In this document: one piece after another, positions 7,665 to 34,013 of the stretch | Layout: the number at the start of each line of letters is the position of its first letter | Position numbering within the stretch: the first letter of the stretch is position 1 | IMG/VR virus record: IMGVR_UViG_3300032053_000008 | From: a virus | DNA: 64,000 bases | Reading direction: 5' to 3' (one strand) | Translations under genes and position numbers: made by a program | Notes under the pieces: generated by a model | The model's input: only the letters and a program-made list of their open reading frames with translations | The model's database searches: none | Told to the model about the DNA's origin: nothing

Positions 7665-7691
7665 TAAAGTTTTCCTGATTTTTGCCGATAA
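7665..7691 (+). promoter_or_regulatory. sigma-28 promoter
   Basis: TAAAGTTT-N11-GCCGATAA. Confidence 0.9.
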
Positions 7692-7722: not shown

Positions 7723-8076
7723 ATGATTGACATAACTAAGCAATACAAAACGCGAGATGGTCGGGATGTACGGATACTGTGTGTGGACGGGCCTAGCATT
7801 CACCACCCGGTTATAGGGATTATTAGTGGTGAGACAATACCCACAAGATGGTCAGAACATGGTATAGCTGCTTTCCCATGCTGTGACCTCCTCGAGGTCA
7901 AACCTAAGATCGTGGTTGAGCGGTGGGTGAATATTTTTCAGTACAAAAACTATAGCTCATCTGGACCCCATATTGATTGGTTCGATGACTCTCAGAGCGC
8001 CTTTGCAGAACATTATAATCCAAATATAACAGTCCTAGCCCGCGCGGTACCGTTTAAGTGGGAGGGGGAGGGATGA
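7723..8076 (+). CDS. hypothetical phage protein (KYKTRDGRDVRILCVD type)
   Basis: AAGGAG RBS after promoter. Confidence 0.8.
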   Translation: MIDITKQYKTRDGRDVRILCVDGPSIHHPVIGIISGETIPTRWSEHGIAAFPCCDLLEVKPKIVVERWVNIFQYKNYSSSGPHIDWFDDSQSAFAEHYNPNITVLARAVPFKWEGEG

Positions 8077-10128: not shown

Positions 10129-11493
10129 ATGAAAGTTTTGATTTTGACCGTATTGTTAGCCCTTACCGCTTGTAATGAGCCGGTAAAAATGAATGACATT
10201 ACCATCGGCACCAATGGTATTGAAAAGACCTGGGACAAAGGTGTTTCTGATGTTCGCAATGAATACGACAACACCGAAAACCGTGTAAGCGACACCTTGG
10301 CTAAGGCCAATGACGATGTGCTTGACACAGCTGCTAAAGCCAACGCTGACGCTGTTGACGAAGAGCACCGCACAACTGGACGTACCAAAGAAACTCTGGC
10401 CAAAGCTAACAGTGACGTACTGGACGAAGAAGCACGGACTACTGGCCGCGTCAAAGACACCTTGGCTAAAGCTAATGGTGACGTACTTGATACAGCCGCA
10501 CAAGCTAATGAAGATGCAGTTGAAGAAGAGCACAAGTTTAACGATCGCTCCAAGACTACTGCTAAAAAAGCCAACATGGACACGATTGCTGAAGGCGACA
10601 AACTGACTGACCGAATCGTCGGCAGCGATGACAAGACAGTTGACCAGCATGGTGACGAAATCCGTGACCTTCAGCGCCGTATGGCCTTGGTTGAGCAAGT
10701 CAATGAATCTCAGTCCATTATACTTAATTTGCATCATTTACGTCTTGGACAACTAGAAACACGCATGTCTGCTGCAGAAAAAGAACTTATTGATACAAAA
10801 GATTATTTTCTATCTGAAGTGGCTCGTTTGGATACCCAAGACGCAGATCTACAGGCAAACCTTGAAGCTGCTGTTACAGCTTTGAATTCAAGCATTGCCA
10901 GTGAATCGGCTTCCAGGGTTAGCGCTGATGCTCAAATTGTAAGCGACCTTTTAGCTGAAACTTCTAGCCGTGTATCAGCTGATAGCGCATTGCAAACACA
11001 AATCACCAGTCTTTCAGGCAGCCTGTCAACTCTGACCACAAACTTTAACAGTTTTAAGTCTGCCCAACAGTTAAACAATCTTTTCCAACAAGGACAACTT
11101 ATTGCCGCAGGTCTTGTATTGGCTAACTTGTCAAGCCGTATGAATACTGCCGAGAGTGATATTAACAGCCTTGAAACTGCTGTCTCAGCTATTCAAACTG
11201 CTGTTAGTGTTATCAACGGACAATTGGTAACCAACGCTTCAAGCATTTCAACTCTTCAGTCTTCTGTTTCTTCACTTACAACTCTGACAACAACACTGCA
11301 AACAGCCGTCAACTCTTCTTGTACTATCTCCAGAAGCACTGGAACGGTTGAGACATACAAACTGTGTGAAACAACTAACTGGGGTGGGCATTGTACTGAT
11401 TGGGACAGTTATACACTCCGTAATGCCACATTGACCCTTCAGTGCCTTGGAAGACCAGCACAAACATTGTCAAACGTTCTTTTCCGTAACTAA
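10129..11493 (+). CDS. lipoprotein with acidic repeats, long coiled coil and small C-terminal Cys-containing domain
   Basis: Lipobox LALTA-C; TLAKAN.DVLD repeats; heptad-rich Ser/Ala/Leu stalk; C-terminal Cys residues. Confidence 0.8.
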   Translation: MKVLILTVLLALTACNEPVKMNDITIGTNGIEKTWDKGVSDVRNEYDNTENRVSDTLAKANDDVLDTAAKANADAVDEEHRTTGRTKETLAKANSDVLDEEARTTGRVKDTLAKANGDVLDTAAQANEDAVEEEHKFNDRSKTTAKKANMDTIAEGDKLTDRIVGSDDKTVDQHGDEIRDLQRRMALVEQVNESQSIILNLHHLRLGQLETRMSAAEKELIDTKDYFLSEVARLDTQDADLQANLEAAVTALNSSIASESASRVSADAQIVSDLLAETSSRVSADSALQTQITSLSGSLSTLTTNFNSFKSAQQLNNLFQQGQLIAAGLVLANLSSRMNTAESDINSLETAVSAIQTAVSVINGQLVTNASSISTLQSSVSSLTTLTTTLQTAVNSSCTISRSTGTVETYKLCETTNWGGHCTDWDSYTLRNATLTLQCLGRPAQTLSNVLFRN

Positions 11494-11604: not shown

Positions 11605-11631
11605 TAAAGTTTTTCACCGAAAAGCCGATAA
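11605..11631 (+). promoter_or_regulatory. sigma-28 promoter
   Basis: TAAAGTTT-N11-GCCGATAA. Confidence 0.9.
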
Positions 11632-11655: not shown

Positions 11656-13182
11656 ATGAAACTTTTCCCATACCAAATCGAAACCATACAAAACTTTATG
11701 GACCATGACGCCAGCGGTGACCCTAAGGTACCTCTAATAGCTCTGGCTACTGGCGCGGGTAAGGGCCGAGTAGCTGTTGAGATTATGTCTGGACTGGTTG
11801 ACCAAAACCCGAAAGAAAGGTTTCTGGTTTTACCGCACGCACAGACAAACCTTAGGTCTAACTTTGTCAAAGAGATTAAGAAGTGGGTTAAGCCGAACCT
11901 TAAGTTCCTAGAAATCAGCCCAGACTCCGAGCCAACGCCAGCCCAAATAGCTGAAGCTAATGTTGTGGTGTGTTTGCCTCAAACGGCTAGGAACCTTTTG
12001 CCATATCTAGGTAATTTTACTAGGATTTTGGTAGATGAAGCTCACGAAAGATACGCCAAAGACAACGAAAACAAAAAGGAATACACCCAGATACGCCAAG
12101 GCTTGCCGAAAGCCAAGGAAATCCTCCTTACCGCGTCCCATGGGGAGTTTAAAAATAGCCACTACAAAAAGTTTACTGTGTCTTTACTGGAAGCTTATAG
12201 TCATGGCACCGTGTCGGATGTGTCACTGGTAGGCGTAAACACCAAATGGGATTTTACAGTCAAAGACTTCAACCAATCCGGCGAAATCGTAAAAGAAGTC
12301 AACATAACGCCACAAAAAGTGGTAGAAGCTTTGCATGACCTGGTTCTCGAAATGGACTCCTGGCGCGGCATTGGGTCCAACAACAAAACCACCAGAGCGA
12401 TCAAGGGTAGCTTTGTGAAAGCCATAAAGCGGCTATCAGGTGACTTCCCTAAGACGGTTATTGCCACCAGAAATATCGACATGGCGGAACAGGTTTATAA
12501 GTTCTTTATAGAGCAAAATGGCTTGGCTGGTCAGGTCATTATGTCGCATAGCAAAAACGACGACGACCGTTTGTTAGAGTTTAATGGAAACGACAAACTG
12601 AAAGTTCTTATAGTTGTCAACAGGGCTAACCTTGGGTTTGACGCTGAAAACGTGATGTGCGTAGTGGATATGACCGGAACCACCAATGAAAACCGTATGA
12701 TGCAGCTTATTGGCCGAGCTGCTAGGGTCCGCCGTGACTCAAAAGGTCAGCCAATCAAAGACGAAAAAGCTTACTTCAAAGTCATGCCCCAGAACATGGA
12801 AATGTATACCAGGGCTCTTTTGCAGTTGTCAGCCCTACTTACTATCAAAAGGTACTACGCTGACTACGAAGGCCGCCAGCCGCTTAAAAAGCAGATTACG
12901 GTAGCCCGTAAAAAGAATGCAATTGCGCAATTTAATGGCACCAGACCTAAAAAGGAAAACGACGGAATATATATACCGGTGCCAAACAGGCTGTCGGATT
13001 TGATTGTTGGAGCAGACCAGTTTTTCACAGAATATGCTAGGACCCACGGCGAATACCTTGAAGTATTTACCAAGACATCCTTAAGTGAAGTAAAGAACTC
13101 TAAGGTTGTTGGAGATGTTGGATTAACACCAAAAGAAATCATTGAATATGCTGAAAATAAATTTGGCAGAACCGTTAGCTAA
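11656..13182 (+). CDS. superfamily 2 (DEAH / type III Res-like) helicase
   Basis: Q motif LFPYQ, Walker A ATGAGKG, DEAH, LTAS, NLGFD, QLIGRAAR. Confidence 0.88.
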   Translation: MKLFPYQIETIQNFMDHDASGDPKVPLIALATGAGKGRVAVEIMSGLVDQNPKERFLVLPHAQTNLRSNFVKEIKKWVKPNLKFLEISPDSEPTPAQIAEANVVVCLPQTARNLLPYLGNFTRILVDEAHERYAKDNENKKEYTQIRQGLPKAKEILLTASHGEFKNSHYKKFTVSLLEAYSHGTVSDVSLVGVNTKWDFTVKDFNQSGEIVKEVNITPQKVVEALHDLVLEMDSWRGIGSNNKTTRAIKGSFVKAIKRLSGDFPKTVIATRNIDMAEQVYKFFIEQNGLAGQVIMSHSKNDDDRLLEFNGNDKLKVLIVVNRANLGFDAENVMCVVDMTGTTNENRMMQLIGRAARVRRDSKGQPIKDEKAYFKVMPQNMEMYTRALLQLSALLTIKRYYADYEGRQPLKKQITVARKKNAIAQFNGTRPKKENDGIYIPVPNRLSDLIVGADQFFTEYARTHGEYLEVFTKTSLSEVKNSKVVGDVGLTPKEIIEYAENKFGRTVS

Positions 13183-13206
13183 AGTTTTCCTGGTTTTGGC
13201 CGATAA
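13180..13206 (+). promoter_or_regulatory. sigma-28 promoter inside an 80-nt insert between helicase and repeat gene
   Basis: TAAAGTTT-N11-GCCGATAA. Confidence 0.88.
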
Positions 13207-13229
13207 AGTTTTGGTAACCGGGAGATCAT

Positions 13230-14678
13230 ATGTTGTACGTATTTGAAAACACAGACGACTGGAAAAAGAAAGACCCAGAATCATACCGGGCTGCTTTAAA
13301 AATTGGTAAAGTGAGAGAAATTGCACTAGAGATTTGTAAAAGAAATCCCAGCAGCTCTGACATTAAAAAAACTCAACTCCTTGAAATGGCTAGAAATGGT
13401 GACAAGAGACCCAGTCAAAGAACTTATCCATTAGGCACGGCTATTGGTAGCTACACAATAAAAGGTAGCGACACTTTTGACGAAGATTTTACCAAACAAA
13501 TCAAAGAAATAGCACCAGATTGGTTTGTAAGTCGATCTAATACAGCTAATACCAAAAAAGCTCAACTCCTTGAAATAGCTAGAAATGGAGAACCGAGACC
13601 CCATCAAACAAAACATTCATTAGGTAGATCTCTTTGTAGCTATACAACAAAAGGTAGGGCGATTTTTGACGAAGATTTTACCAAACAAATCAAAGAAATA
13701 GCACCACATTGGTTTGAAAATACGGCTAATACCAAAAAAGCTCAATTACTTGAAATGGCTAGAAATGGTGACAAAAAACCTCATAGGGAAACCGTACCGG
13801 GCACAGCTCTTCATTCCTACACAACAAAAGGTAGAGACACTTTTGACGAAGATTTTACCAAAGAACTCAAAGAAATAGCACCAGATTGGTTTGTAAGTCG
13901 ATCTAATACAGCTAATACCAAAAAAGCTCAACTCCTTGAAATAGCTAGAAATGGAGAACCGAGACCCCATCAAACAAAACATTCATTAGGCACAGCTCTT
14001 GGTAGCTACACAATAAAAGGTAGCGAGATTTTTGACGAAGATTTTACCAAACAAATCAAAGAAATAGCACCAGATTGGTTTGTAAGTCGATCTAATACAG
14101 CTAATACCAAAAAAGCTCAACTCCTTGAAATAGCTAGAAATGGAGAACCGAGACCCCATCAAACAAAACATTCATTAGGTAGATCTCTTTGTAGCTATAC
14201 AACAAAAGGTAGGGCGATTTTTGACGAAGATTTTACCAAACAAATCAAAGAAATAGCACCACATTGGTTTGAAAATACGGCTAATACCAAAAAAGCTCAA
14301 TTACTTGAAATGGCTAGAAATGGTGACAAAAAACCTCATAGGGAAACCGTACCGGGCACAGCTCTTCATTCCTACACAACAAAAGGTAGAGACACTTTTG
14401 ACGAAGATTTTACCAAAGAACTCAAAGAAATAGCACCAGATTGGTTTGTAAGTCGATCTAATACAGCTAATACCAAAAAAGCTCAACTCCTTGAAATAGC
14501 TAGAAATGGAGAACCGAGACCCCATCAAACAAAACATTCATTAGGCACAGCTCTTGGTAGCTACACAATAAAAGGTAGCGAGATTTTTGACGAAGATTTT
14601 ACCAAACAAATCAAAGAAATAGCACCACACTGGTTTAACTCAAAAAAGAGTTCAAGTTTCCCGCAAAAAAGCCGATAA
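13230..14678 (+). CDS. tandem-repeat protein, 7 x 60-63 aa helicase-associated (HA)-like helical repeats
   Basis: Unit KKAQLLE.ARNG..P....LG..L.SYT.KG...FDEDFTKQIKEIAP.WF. Confidence 0.8.
   Translation: MLYVFENTDDWKKKDPESYRAALKIGKVREIALEICKRNPSSSDIKKTQLLEMARNGDKRPSQRTYPLGTAIGSYTIKGSDTFDEDFTKQIKEIAPDWFVSRSNTANTKKAQLLEIARNGEPRPHQTKHSLGRSLCSYTTKGRAIFDEDFTKQIKEIAPHWFENTANTKKAQLLEMARNGDKKPHRETVPGTALHSYTTKGRDTFDEDFTKELKEIAPDWFVSRSNTANTKKAQLLEIARNGEPRPHQTKHSLGTALGSYTIKGSEIFDEDFTKQIKEIAPDWFVSRSNTANTKKAQLLEIARNGEPRPHQTKHSLGRSLCSYTTKGRAIFDEDFTKQIKEIAPHWFENTANTKKAQLLEMARNGDKKPHRETVPGTALHSYTTKGRDTFDEDFTKELKEIAPDWFVSRSNTANTKKAQLLEIARNGEPRPHQTKHSLGTALGSYTIKGSEIFDEDFTKQIKEIAPHWFNSKKSSSFPQKSR
13364..14637 (+). 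repeat. coding tandem repeats (180-189 nt units) with a 555-nt higher-order duplication
   Basis: Antisense ORFs recur at +555 (13431/13986; 13746/14301); units 2-4 are repeated as 5-7. Confidence 0.9.
14652..14678 (+). promoter_or_regulatory. sigma-28 promoter
   Basis: TCAAGTTT-N11-GCCGATAA; the -10 supplies the upstream stop codon. Confidence 0.82.
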
Positions 14679-14727
14679 GGATATTGTAAGTAGTAGTTAA
14701 CAACATTTCTTCAAGAAAGGAAGAAAT

Positions 14728-15123
14728 ATGAAAAAGGCTCTGGATAAATCAGGTACAGTTTACGCGCAAACGAACAAGGACAACTACCTTGAAAAAATGT
14801 CTAAAGACCCGTCATCGCGGTTTTTTAAACAAAAAGCCATTGACTCAGATTTCGTCAATGAAGTTAAAGAATTAAGGCCGGAATGGTTTGGTCCTAGTAT
14901 TGTGTCTGGTCTTGCTAGAACTGCAGCCGGATTTGATGCCACCCTCTTAAAGGTTTTTACGGACAAAGGTAAGTTTATCGGGTATACTGGTATGGCTAGA
15001 AGAGGTTCTGTTGTCTTCAAGGACGTTAACTGGACAGCTGAAGGCAAGGCTTACTTGGGTGAGCGTAAATCTACGAATGTCCCGTGTTTAAACATAAACA
15101 CAAAAGACATAGTTCCGTTTTGA
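14728..15123 (+). CDS. hypothetical protein with one degenerate copy of the upstream repeat
   Basis: DSDFVNEVKELRPEWF resembles DEDFTKQIKEIAPDWF. Confidence 0.75.
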   Translation: MKKALDKSGTVYAQTNKDNYLEKMSKDPSSRFFKQKAIDSDFVNEVKELRPEWFGPSIVSGLARTAAGFDATLLKVFTDKGKFIGYTGMARRGSVVFKDVNWTAEGKAYLGERKSTNVPCLNINTKDIVPF

Positions 15124-15147: not shown

Positions 15148-15175
15148 GGCAGTATTATTAAATACTGCCTTTTTT
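15148..15175 (+). terminator. Rho-independent terminator
   Basis: GGCAGTATT/AATACTGCC stem followed by T6. Confidence 0.85.
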
Positions 15176-15205: not shown

Positions 15206-15260
15206 GGTGCCTAGTATGAAACAAATAGTAACGAGGGAACAAATAGTAACGAGGGAACAA

Positions 15261-15776
15261 ATGCACCATTACCACCAAGACCAACAAAAGCACCTGACAC
15301 CAGCTATGGCAACTATTCCTCTGGTCCTTAACGGTTACGACAAAATCATGGGTGAGAGGGTAGGCGACACGATTACGTTTATGCACCCAGGATTTGGTAT
15401 TGTAAACAAGCTTGAGCAAAAAACCGACAAAGGTTATATTGAACTGACTTTAGGGGCACGTATAGGTATTGGGCCTCATGGCAGTACCTATATGGTCAAA
15501 GAGTGGCAATCTGGTGGCACGGTCAATCTTGGTGCTATGGCACCAGACTGGGTTGCATACTACAAAGCCACTGCCCAATGGAATCAAGCTGTTGGGTTTG
15601 TTGAGGCTACAGGTGTTGGTATTATGCCAACAGATTGGATCTCATGGCGCAATGCAGTAACAGAAAGGGCTAAAAGCGTTGCATTAGGCATAGGTTGCCC
15701 CCACCAATGGGAACAAAAGCCCTTACTTACAGGAAATTACCATAAATGCCTGCTATGTGGAGAAGAAAAAGTATGA
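15261..15776 (+). CDS. hypothetical protein with tail-fibre-like motif and C-terminal Zn-ribbon
   Basis: Start MHHY after GAGG within an 18-bp duplication; EWQSGGTVNLGA; CPHQW..CLLCG. Confidence 0.65.
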   Translation: MHHYHQDQQKHLTPAMATIPLVLNGYDKIMGERVGDTITFMHPGFGIVNKLEQKTDKGYIELTLGARIGIGPHGSTYMVKEWQSGGTVNLGAMAPDWVAYYKATAQWNQAVGFVEATGVGIMPTDWISWRNAVTERAKSVALGIGCPHQWEQKPLLTGNYHKCLLCGEEKV

Positions 15777-15991: not shown

Positions 15992-16518
15992 AACAGCTAA
16001 CGTATCAAGATATTGTCAATATGGTCCCTTGTCAGTCCCATTACCCTGATAAGTACATCCCAATTACCTGGACTGGCACCATTATAGACATTCTCAGACT
16101 ACCTAACGTAGCACCAACTGAAAAGCTGTGGGTGGCTTATAAGGTACTTGACGATAAGACACTTAGGCTATTTGCAGTTGATTGTGCACGAAGGGCTTTA
16201 GGTAGGGTAGCTAAACCCGACATCAGAAGCTTAATAGCTGTTAACATGGCTGAAGCTTATGCACACGGTAGGTGTACAGCTGAGGAGATGAGAGTAGCTC
16301 GTCAAGGTTCTTATGCTGCTGCTGATGCTGCTGCTAGTTATGCTACTGCTAGTTATGCTGCTGATGCTTATGCTGCTGCTAATTATGCTGCTGCTAGTTA
16401 TACTACTGCTAGTTATGCTGCTGATGCTGCTGCTGCTGATGCTGCTGCTTATGCCCGCAAACAAGAGTGTGAGACACAGATAGTTGAGCTAATTAGGTTG
16501 ATTGAGGAGGATGTATGA
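15988..16518 (+). CDS. Imm5-like / Ala-rich phage protein
   Basis: LRLFAVDCARRAL..DIRS..AEAYAHG followed by (TATGCTGCT)n-encoded Ala-Tyr tract. Confidence 0.6.
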   Translation: MKQLTYQDIVNMVPCQSHYPDKYIPITWTGTIIDILRLPNVAPTEKLWVAYKVLDDKTLRLFAVDCARRALGRVAKPDIRSLIAVNMAEAYAHGRCTAEEMRVARQGSYAAADAAASYATASYAADAYAAANYAAASYTTASYAADAAAADAAAYARKQECETQIVELIRLIEEDV

Positions 16519-29510: not shown

Positions 29511-30824
29511 TTAGGCTATGCGGGTAGCATAAAAATTGGAATAGAAATTAGTGTCATTCAGATAGTTACCGCCGTTAGAGCCAGCTACATCCACGTATAC
29601 AACCTGTATTTGGTAAGTCTTAGATGAAGGTATATTCACAACAGTTGAAGCCGATACACTCCCTATTGTAAAAACCGAAAGAGCGGTGACGTTTCTAATA
29701 TATAGTGAACGTTTGGTGTCTGGCATATCTGCTGAATCTGTAGAGTTAAAAATTCTAGCTGCACTATAAACCTGAAAGTTGATAGTAGAGCCTGTGGTTG
29801 GCTGCAAAGATACAGAGTATTTAATTTCCCATACACCTGGCGTCAGGGTTATAGAACCAACACTTGTATAAGAGGCATTTAGTGCAGTGCTCGCTGCCAT
29901 AGTCGCAGCTTTAATCTCCCCAACAAACCCACTAGCTATAGCCGCGCCGTTAGTAGAACCAGGTGTACCACTAGCAGGCAACAAACCACCAATAACCTGT
30001 GGGACATAAGTAGTAACGCTAGCTGCAGCATAAGCTGTGGTGTCTAGTACCCAAGTAGATCCGTTATACGTCAAAATAACCCAACCACCAGTAGTATTAC
30101 ACACCAGAGTTTCGTTAATGGCTAGGCCGTCAATTTTTTGGCCTGCAAAAGGTGCTATGGTAAGATTGTTAGTCCCCCAAGTCCTAGCAGCATCTGATAC
30201 TTTAATTGATTGACCAGTAACACCACTAGGCAAAGTCAAGGTATAAGCACTAGACGTTGTGTCAGCTAAATAGTGGTAACCATTCTGAGCGGTAGTGGCT
30301 CCAGCAATAGGTTGAATTACCCAAGTACCTGAAGCACCACCAAAACCGTTTGTATCAAATACCCACTTGGTGCCATCCCACATAAATTGGACAAAAGCGC
30401 CAATAAGATCACATACTAACGTAGCATTAACGGCTTGACCATCAATAGCTTCGCCTGTAGCTGGGATAACTGTAAGGTTATTGATACCCCAGGTGCGGTT
30501 GTCATCTGACACTCTGATCACAGCGCCAGTAGAGCCAGCTGGTAAAGTAACGTTAAAGGCTGCCGTAGCCGTGTTACACAAATAATGGAAACCAGGGGCA
30601 GCTGTGGTGCTAGTTGAAATCAAACTAGTAGTCAAACCGCCACCAACAATAGCTTCCACACCAGCTGAAGTCTTACTGTAGAATTTGTTGTCAGTCTTAG
30701 CGTAAAAGGACAAGTTACCTGCACCAGGGGTAAGCATACTAGCTACGGTACTAAATACGTTAGCGCCATCAATAGCTGTTTGGCCAGTTGTGCCTGCACC
30801 TGATTGAGTTATTACTTTAGCCAT
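29511..30824 (-). CDS. tail fibre protein with two T4 gp34-like repeats
   Basis: Two HYL.DT...TLP.G..G..I.VSD..RTW..NNLT repeats plus RIA module. Confidence 0.7.
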   Translation of the reverse strand: MAKVITQSGAGTTGQTAIDGANVFSTVASMLTPGAGNLSFYAKTDNKFYSKTSAGVEAIVGGGLTTSLISTSTTAAPGFHYLCNTATAAFNVTLPAGSTGAVIRVSDDNRTWGINNLTVIPATGEAIDGQAVNATLVCDLIGAFVQFMWDGTKWVFDTNGFGGASGTWVIQPIAGATTAQNGYHYLADTTSSAYTLTLPSGVTGQSIKVSDAARTWGTNNLTIAPFAGQKIDGLAINETLVCNTTGGWVILTYNGSTWVLDTTAYAAASVTTYVPQVIGGLLPASGTPGSTNGAAIASGFVGEIKAATMAASTALNASYTSVGSITLTPGVWEIKYSVSLQPTTGSTINFQVYSAARIFNSTDSADMPDTKRSLYIRNVTALSVFTIGSVSASTVVNIPSSKTYQIQVVYVDVAGSNGGNYLNDTNFYSNFYATRIA

Positions 30825-30851
30825 AATATACCTTATTAGATCTTTTAGGAG

Positions 30852-31016
30852 TTAAAGTACAACATAACATACTTTATTGAGACATTTATCACTTAAAGTA
30901 CAACATAACATACTTTATTGAGACATTTATCACTTAAAGGCTGATATAACATACTTTATTGAGACATTTATCACTTAAAGGCTGATATAACATACTTTAT
31001 CCAGGTTAAAGGCTGG
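30852..31016. repeat. 41-bp intergenic tandem direct repeats (3 full + partial)
   Basis: TTAAAG(TACAAC/GCTGAT)ATAACATACTTTATTGAGACATTTATCAC at 30852, 30893, 30934, partial at 30975. Confidence 0.95.
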
Positions 31017-33923: not shown

Positions 33924-34013
33924 GTACTTTTACGTACCAAAAAAGTATTAAATGTTGTACTTTTACGTACCAAAAAAGTATTAAATGTTGTACTTTTACG
34001 TACCAAAAAAGTA
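33924..34013. repeat. three 33-bp-spaced copies of a quasi-palindromic 24-mer
   Basis: GTACTTTTACGTACCAAAAAAGTA at 33924, 33957, 33990. Confidence 0.95.

What the first reader, a model, noticed from the sequence alone, without database searches (positions are those of the whole stretch)
11656..15123. SF2 helicase plus modular repeat array with hypervariable positions: candidate reprogrammable DNA-recognition system
Seen: seven 60-63 aa repeats with an almost invariant scaffold and variation concentrated in the middle (TAIGSYTI / RSLCSYTT / TALHSYTT / TALGSYTI, and KRPSQRTYP / PRPHQTKHS / KKPHRETVP). Unit 4 is a chimera of the first half of unit 2 and a unit-1-like second half, and units 2-4 are duplicated as a 555-nt block. 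The next gene keeps a degenerate repeat end (DSDFVNEVKELRPEWF). Each of the three genes has its own sigma-28 promoter. Inference: these are helicase-associated-like three-helix units forming a TALE/zinc-finger-like array reshuffled by recombination, possibly directing the helicase to host or competitor DNA.
Basis: partly seen in the sequence, partly recalled or inferred. Interest (0 to 1): 0.7.

Follow-up and report, generated by a model that had tools for sequence, protein, structure and literature searches.

The report
Phage helicase with reshuffling repeat arm
A large uncultured phage carries a DNA-motor gene beside a detached arm of small three-helix repeats whose number, order and one exposed helix face differ between otherwise identical copies of the phage; the arm probably tells the motor which DNA to grip, but no binding or reading code has been shown.

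Summary
The seven repeats, chimeric unit 4, the 555-nt duplication, the repeat remnant in gene 3 and the three promoters are all in the sequence. Two caveats: the promoter type occurs 14 times in the window, and depth in 4 of 4 runs shows the duplicated block at about single copy, so seven units is a minor haplotype or an assembly product.

Reshuffling itself is real. Six assemblies of this gene have 2, 2, 3, 4, 4 and 7 units with nine variable cores; in one, the flanking genes are identical while unit 1 differs at 12 of 162 bases.

The unit is an unnamed phage repeat (732 clusters), HA-like but below the Pfam HA cut-off. Family-wide it varies most on one acid-poor face of helix 2. It sits on, or beside, ResIII-type helicases; the 70%-identical orthologue carries a different array, fused. 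Here helicase and array appear cut apart inside one small domain by a promoter cassette.

Best reading: a swappable DNA-selecting subunit for a translocase. Binding, docking and any code are inferred. This scan noted such arrays and split docking earlier on other DNA; nine literature searches found no description.

The parts
11607..11631 (+). sigma-28-type promoter-like site before the helicase (one of 14 in the window)
   Evidence: label from recalled consensus
11656..13182 (+). SF2 helicase/translocase, 508 aa, ResIII + Helicase_C, no nuclease domain; DEAH and motif VI intact, Walker A reads GxGKG
13123..13158 (+). helicase residues 490-501: probable first helix of a 43-aa W-type repeat unit (weak match)
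   Evidence: best site in the protein, rank 9 of 31,102 window 12-mers, but 5.9 bits against 22-37 for true units
13161..13245 (+). junction: 80-nt stretch between two ATTTG direct repeats carrying the helicase stop, a promoter, a ribosome-binding site and the array start; looks like an inserted cassette
   Evidence: promoter 13182 matches the one at 7667 at 31 of 34 bases (median pair 23)
13182..13206 (+). sigma-28-type promoter-like site; the helicase stop codon forms the start of its upstream box
13230..14678 (+). repeat-array gene, 482 aa as assembled here
13242..13319 (+). N-terminal tag, residues 5-30: positions 13-38 of the W-type unit that tails most relatives of this helicase
   Evidence: top hit, E 0.0025 among 321 window ORFs
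13365..13553 (+). unit 1 (type A)
13554..13733 (+). unit 2 (type B)
13734..13919 (+). unit 3 (type C)
13920..14108 (+). unit 4 (type D, mosaic of B loop and A-like helix 2)
14030..14627 (+). second copy of the 598-nt exact repeat (offset 555; units 5-7); probably a minor haplotype or assembly product
14654..14678 (+). sigma-28-type promoter-like site; its last three bases are the array's stop codon
14728..15123 (+). gene 3, 131 aa: remnant of one unit (14812-14889) plus a 77-aa domain with no family match
15148..15169 (+). terminator-like hairpin, the only + strand one found between 11400 and 15300

Best explanation
The array protein is a detachable, sequence-selective DNA-binding subunit for the neighbouring SF2 translocase. 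Each ~56-aa three-helix unit presents helix 2 and its flanking loops (model columns 20, 27, 30, 31, 34, 37, 38) to the bases while a basic scaffold holds the backbone (inferred). The array clips onto the helicase because the helicase's last helix and the array's first two helices complete one small domain (inferred). The motor, which has no nuclease, is thereby loaded at chosen sites, most likely on host or competing-phage DNA during infection, and translocates to strip or block proteins there (inferred). Unequal crossing-over and gene conversion between units change unit number, order and helix-2 residues within the phage population (shown), which would retarget the motor (inferred).
For: Shown. 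(1) Six assemblies of the gene differ in unit number and carry nine variable cores, some with residues absent from the window; L011 equals the window at 725/725, 396/396 and 569/570 bases in flanking genes but differs at 12/162 in unit 1. (2) In 178 close within-protein unit pairs from 60 of 188 proteins, differences peak at columns 27, 30, 38, 20, 31, 37, 34 (54-71%) against 11-35% at the eight exposed columns tested on helices 1 and 3; that face holds 3% Asp+Glu against 24-26%, and 58% small polar residues against 19-22%; median net charge +5 per unit. The helix-2 face is the more variable one in 174 of 187 proteins. (3) 26 of 27 long family members are fusions to a ResIII/DEAD/Helicase_C helicase; all 7 independent viral loci have the helicase fused or adjacent; arrays lie in one cluster in 5 of 5 phage records. 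(4) The 70%-identical orthologue P0197 diverges after residue 481 and carries four fused units of a related subtype that vary at the same helix positions; 25 of 29 other homologues carry a W-type repeat tail. (5) In L001, L003, L005/L007 one helicase ends in HA helix 2 and 2-4 array genes start with HA helix 3 (7 of 9 tags E<=0.005); in L001 the arrays lie upstream of the helicase, so they can only act in trans; L016 shows the same ends by eye. (6) HA domains are reported to bind DNA (Mills 2013 as cited in PMC12191111) and occur in tandem on the target selector TniQ.
Against: No binding data and no target. The allele count in the variable middle (23 amino-acid against 9 synonymous) is close to the neutral ratio, so relaxed constraint plus conversion explains it as well as selection. 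The helicase half of the split W unit scores 5.9 bits against 22-37 for true units, and the three HA-type helicase ends score only E 0.008, 0.03 and 0.7 on a 20-sequence model. The 22 tags of a third type match no fused helicase. Walker A is GxGKG where 28 of 32 relatives have GKT, so ATPase activity is not assured. The methyltransferase-fold partner found in 5 of 7 related loci is not in this window. Kinship to HA is unproven. 722 different 27/30/31 triplets among 1038 units do not look like a simple TALE-type code.
Confidence: 0.45

Rival explanations
1. The array is a non-specific nucleic-acid tether or processivity arm for the helicase; unit number and surface residues drift by unequal crossing-over and conversion, without retargeting.
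For: Near-neutral ratio of amino-acid to synonymous alleles; arrays of 2 to 7 units all occur; strongly basic units; different repeat families substitute for each other on the same helicase.
Against: Variation is confined to one acid-poor face rather than spread over exposed positions; several different arrays per helicase in L001, L003, L005, L006 make little sense for a generic tether.
Confidence: 0.25
2. The three genes are fragments of one ancestral helicase-W-array-domain gene cut twice by mobile promoter cassettes; the pieces now act separately or decay, and the free array works as a repressor or decoy, or not at all.
For: Both stop codons lie inside promoter boxes, the first junction is flanked by a 5-nt direct repeat, and its promoter is a near-copy of the one at 7667; gene 3 starts with a unit remnant; relatives are mostly fused.
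Against: All three frames are intact with their own start signals and the helicase and gene 3 are identical across 5-6 contigs; comparable splits with complementary ends recur in four other phage loci.
Confidence: 0.15
3. The variable face binds RNA or host proteins (an anti-defence or host-takeover adaptor), not DNA bases.
For: Hypervariable repeat surfaces also mark protein-binding repeats (general knowledge); the genes lie among small accessory genes under host-type promoters.
Against: Near-absence of acidic residues on the variable face (3%), constant partnership with a DNA translocase, one GIY-YIG nuclease fusion.
Confidence: 0.1
4. The array is a selfish module, the DNA-binding tail of homing-endonuclease-like elements, that spreads between genes.
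For: P0169 is GIY-YIG plus four units; a TnsA-like endonuclease gene lies near the clusters in L003 and L005.
Against: 1 nuclease fusion against 26 helicase fusions; arrays are confined to one cluster in 5 of 5 records; no nuclease here.
Confidence: 0.05

Closest known systems
SF2 helicases with tandem helicase-associated (HA, Pfam PF03457) domains, e.g. Streptomyces TtrA and Bacteroides vulgatus domain 2KTA
   Same: Tandem ~60-aa three-helix units behind a ResIII-type helicase; 2KTA aligns over 62 of 63 residues of one unit (Z 4.2, rmsd 3.5 A); HA arrays are the nearest models in the Atlas (TM 0.55-0.61) and among viral models (E 0.003); true HA units occur in the same proteins (P0175).
   Different: No Pfam HA hit in the units; different conserved residues; separate gene here; localized hypervariability and allele reshuffling not described for HA in the papers seen.
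HA-bearing TniQ of telomeric Tn7-like transposons (bioRxiv 10.1101/2024.11.13.623437)
   Same: Tandem HA domains on a target-selecting protein, proposed to recognise DNA (passages).
   Different: Transposon context, canonical HA, recognition untested there too.
TALE/STAR repeats and C2H2 zinc-finger arrays
   Same: Fixed scaffold, few variable positions, rearranged units; helix positions i, i+3, i+4, i+7 recall zinc-finger recognition helices (recalled).
   Different: Unit of 56-63 aa with three helices, about seven variable positions, no RVD pair, no zinc ligands, no known code.
Type I restriction-modification (HsdR motor, HsdS exchangeable specificity subunit, HsdM)
   Same: ResIII/HsdR-like motor (E 3e-7 to EcoAI R) with a separate variable subunit; related loci add a class I SAM-methyltransferase-fold gene.
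   Different: No nuclease domain, no HsdS TRD, no methyltransferase in this window; phage-encoded.
PeSL promoter cassettes of T4-type phages (PMC2839356)
   Same: Repeated promoter cassettes in accessory regions that shuffle genes (abstract).
   Different: Sigma-28-type rather than sigma-70-type; here a cassette seems to split a domain.

Membership tests
HA domain (PF03457) | Pfam model score at or above 28.4 bits | tested here: not met
   No HA hit in P0002 at E<=1. 7 of 89 family members hit HA; in the four of them whose coordinates I saw, the hit lies in the N-terminal leader, not in the units.
HA domain (PF03457) | Profile-profile similarity of the unit to HA | tested here: inconclusive
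   hhalign score 11.6, reached by 5 of 30 column shuffles; the HA profile had only 20 mostly partial sequences.
HA domain (PF03457) | Three-helix fold of 2KTA | tested here: inconclusive
   Z 4.8, rmsd 5.9, 72 aligned, rank 1 for four units; Z 4.2, rmsd 3.5, 62 aligned, rank 3 for one unit; neither stands above the background.
HA domain (PF03457) | Tandem copies at the C-terminus of SF2 helicases | tested here: met
   26 of 27 long members are helicase fusions; in this window the array is a separate gene.
HA domain (PF03457) | DNA binding | not testable with these tools
   Only composition evidence.
TALE-like repeats | 33-35-aa two-helix repeat with a variable di-residue (recalled) | tested here: not met
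   56-63-aa three-helix units.
TALE-like repeats | Hypervariable positions on a fixed scaffold, units rearranged between alleles | tested here: met
TALE-like repeats | Residue-to-base code | not testable with these tools
   No target known; 722 triplets in 1038 units.
SF2 ResIII-type helicase | ResIII and Helicase_C domains above cut-off; DExH and motif VI | tested here: met
   58.2 and 38.6 bits; DEAH and QxxGRxxR.
SF2 ResIII-type helicase | Walker A GK[T/S] | tested here: not met
   GKG in P0001 and P0197; GKT in 28 of 32 proteins listed.
Type I restriction-modification | Nuclease domain on the motor subunit | tested here: not met
   ResIII starts at residue 1; no nuclease family hit.
Type I restriction-modification | Partner methyltransferase | tested here: inconclusive
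   None in 321 window ORFs (best E 0.23), but only 64 kb of a contig of about 151 kb is visible.

The most novel reading that the evidence does not exclude
A widespread phage class of protein-programmed DNA targeting: SF2 motors receive interchangeable repeat-array subunits through split-domain docking, each unit reading a few base pairs through helix 2, so that recombination between units rewrites the target within a phage population. Units could be recombined at will into designer DNA binders, and at least three unrelated or diverged repeat families (this one, its P0197 subtype, the W-type) serve the same slot.
Probability: 0.25. Interest if true: 0.9.

Novelty: new variant of a known kind. 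Interest (0 to 1): 0.58.

Why it matters
If the units read bases modularly, this is a new natural programmable DNA-binding scaffold with over a thousand natural units to decode, and a phage targeting system that is retargeted by recombination rather than by guide RNA. This locus is unusually testable: six natural alleles on a nearly identical scaffold differ in a handful of helix-2 residues, so one SELEX panel can decide between a code and a generic tether. It would also settle the open question of what tandem HA-like domains do on helicases and on TniQ.

Tried and rejected
Complex prediction of helicase residues 380-508 with array residues 1-104, without alignments: no answer, score 0.01 twice; no evidence either way.

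No relatives of the two-unit query, the helicase, P0197 or alignment A4 in viral contigs, none of A2 in genome contigs, none of two array queries among annotated phages or of one among plasmids; the helicase finds only 22-23% Vibrio phage helicases. These are pattern- or BLAST-limited blanks.

No solved relative by sequence (best E 0.03) or by Foldseek. PF03457 search of five phage records rang nowhere, controls included, so it is uninformative.

Third tag type (22 proteins) did not match the pre-array segment of fused helicases. The C-terminal domain of P0128 and L006:1060-5127 looked methyltransferase-like by eye but was not hit by the model. Gene 3's C-terminal domain did not match window ORF 7723-8076, which it resembled by eye. 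Translational bypass across the 80-nt junction was considered and dropped: the stop lies six codons after the repeat, and the array has its own start signals. The helicase tree needs 6 label changes against a minimum of 4, but long branches meet, so it was not used for an order of events. Mills 2013 could not be read.
Full report
Setting. The window is part of a large tailed phage: baseplate, tail-fibre, protease and thymidylate-synthase genes; the array protein is on a contig of 151 kb and the helicase on one of 159 kb. No whole genome is held. Ten runs hold the stretch, all sediment metagenomes, seven with half or more of its words. The three genes lie among small accessory genes, with one terminator-like hairpin after gene 3.

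The observation. The seven units are there, as four types in the order A B C D B C D', with an exact 598-nt repeat at offset 555. Unit 4 is a mosaic and gene 3 keeps a third of a unit. The promoter motif occurs 14 times in the window against 0.03 by chance, so it marks the whole accessory programme, not this trio.

Is the duplication real? Logan contigs over the C unit show about single-copy depth in 4 of 4 runs, where a fixed duplication would double it. Contig depth is a coarse measure and none spans the array, so a minor seven-unit haplotype is not excluded. But reshuffling does not rest on this block. Six assemblies have 7, 4, 4, 3, 2 and 2 units and nine distinct variable cores. P0091 and L011 carry residues found in no window unit, which an assembler cannot invent from the window's sequence; P0195 could be a collapse. 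P0004 lacks exactly 185 residues, with the crossover in a stretch of about ten identical bases, too short for graph collapse. L011 is identical to the window over 725 bases of helicase and 396 of gene 3, yet differs at 12 of 162 bases in unit 1. Run X4 holds further alleles. The array is the fast-changing spot in an otherwise clonal region.

The unit. One unit finds 732 proteins among 1.84 billion 50% representatives; the whole protein finds 71. I worked with 192 proteins holding about 1,050 units. AlphaFold2 gives three helices plus a short fourth (pLDDT 92.7 for four units, 91.8 for one). Conserved L25, G26, L29, Y32, T33 alternate with variable 27, 30, 31 and 34 along helix 2; exposure is inferred from this spacing, as I had no coordinates. 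Any repeat varies on its surface, so I compared surfaces. In 178 close within-protein pairs (60 of 188 proteins), columns 27, 30, 38, 20, 31, 37 and 34 differ in 54-71% of pairs, the eight tested exposed columns of helices 1 and 3 in 11-35%; the helix-2 face has 3% acidic residues against 24-26%. It is the more variable face in 174 of 187 proteins. Five proteins picked for near-identical units show the same positions. Against a simple code: 722 triplets in 1038 units, and in this phage 23 amino-acid to 9 synonymous alleles, near the neutral ratio.

Kinship to HA. No Pfam HA hit in the units and no significant profile match on a thin HA profile. HA arrays are nearest in the Atlas and among viral models; 2KTA ranks first and third of 48,161 chains, at Z 4.8 and 4.2, within the background. 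So: HA-like, not a filed member.

The helicase. It is ResIII plus Helicase_C with no nuclease, with a GKG Walker A shared only with its orthologue among 32 proteins. Of 27 long family members, 26 are fusions to such helicases, and one shorter member is a GIY-YIG fusion. P0054 aligns with the whole helicase up to where its own array starts. P0197 is 70% identical up to residue 481 and then carries four fused units of a related subtype (hhalign 94.8%) that vary at the same helix positions. Of 29 further homologues, 25 hit a different 43-aa repeat, here called W-type. The motor is kept and the array is swapped.

The split. Array residues 5-30 match W-unit positions 13-38 (E 0.0025 among 321 ORFs); helicase residues 490-501 are its best match to positions 1-12, though weak. 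Together the pair scores 33.0 against 5.9 for the next of 102 adjacent ORF pairs, mostly from the array half. Between the halves lie 80 bases flanked by a 5-base direct repeat, holding stop, promoter and start; the promoter matches the one at 7667 at 31 of 34 bases. The array's own stop is the end of the next promoter. I infer that promoter cassettes cut one gene, much as PeSL cassettes shuffle T4-type genes (PMC2839356, abstract).

Related loci. Ten loci reduce to 7 independent ones; all have the helicase, fused in four and adjacent in three. In the three split ones, 2-4 array genes share a leader that matches HA helix 3 (7 of 9, E<=0.005) while the helicase ends in helix 2 (E 0.008, 0.03, 0.7). 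In L001 the arrays precede the helicase. L016 repeats the layout. Five of the seven have a neighbour with a class I SAM-methyltransferase fold; of three new loci found through that gene, one has helicase plus array, one a helicase only, one neither. The window has none. Arrays form a single cluster in 5 of 5 records, one of them complete. Among 113 stand-alone leaders, 42 are HA-like (18 were in the training set), 2 W-like and 22 of an unexplained type.

Mechanism. Shown: modular units, one variable acid-poor face, population-level reshuffling, constant partnership with the motor, array exchange between orthologues. Inferred: base reading, docking through the split domain, site-loading of a nuclease-free translocase on host or rival DNA. 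I put this at 0.45, a generic tether at 0.25, independent or decaying fragments at 0.15, RNA or protein binding at 0.10, a selfish module at 0.05.

Literature. Nine searches found no description of this family or layout. Seen: PMC11417379 abstract and passages (phage 0, HA domain 0 in main text); PMC10392669 passages (helicase 0); PMC12191111 passages citing Mills 2013 for DNA binding by HA (Mills itself not seen); 10.1101/2024.11.13.623437 passages on HA arrays in TtrA and TniQ; PMC2839356 abstract. I did not open the supplements of the two repeat surveys, whose candidate tables might list this family, and most subscription journals are not searched.

Earlier notes of this scan (read after my own notes) report such arrays and split HA docking on other DNA. 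They are not independent support. New here are the allele series within one phage, the split through a different domain by a promoter cassette, the swapped array in a close orthologue and the paired surface control.

Verdict. A real, undescribed variant of the helicase-plus-HA-array design, with good indirect signs of adaptable DNA recognition and no direct proof. Interest 0.58.

Noticed in passing
window 11656-13182: Walker A reads GxGKG instead of GKT in this helicase and its 70% orthologue, while DEAH and motif VI are intact.
   Followed up: partly
P0197-P0226 tails; window 13242-13319: A second unnamed 43-aa repeat (W-type) forms tandem tails on most relatives of this helicase and has no convincing Pfam match; a candidate DNA-binding repeat family in its own right.
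   Followed up: partly
L001:5210-5995, L003:1980-2684, L007:3363-4133, L008:3617-4222, L009:2964-3638: Conserved phage gene with a class I SAM-methyltransferase fold and no Pfam family, next to the helicase-array cluster.
   Followed up: partly
L003:7590-8768, L005:11441-12601: DUF7487 plus TnsA-like endonuclease gene just downstream of the array clusters.
   Followed up: no
L006 and its record G003, 9.6-28.9 kb: Very large cluster: two helicase-array fusions and five stand-alone arrays in the locus, 16 matches over 19 kb, with a radical-SAM gene in between.
   Followed up: no
window 13177-13221: In runs X1-X3 a contig joins a different promoter variant to the array's start region, and X4 holds two variant leaders: possibly a second copy or allele of the array gene.
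   Followed up: no
window 10129-11493: 454-aa ORF upstream of the helicase with a lipoprotein-like start, a 55-aa internal repeat and a long coiled coil; only weak family hits.
   Followed up: no
window 16310-16454: Low-complexity 15-nt array encoding Ala/Ser/Tyr repeats in a 176-aa ORF (PHROG 18326); indel-variable against L011.
   Followed up: no
window 15220-15262, 30822-31000, 33924-34013: Short tandem arrays: 18 nt x 2.4, 41 nt x 4.4 and 33 nt x 2.7.
   Followed up: no
P0005 and P0006: Two versions of another array protein that differ by one deleted unit (8 against 7), the same kind of copy-number change in an unrelated phage or assembly.
   Followed up: no
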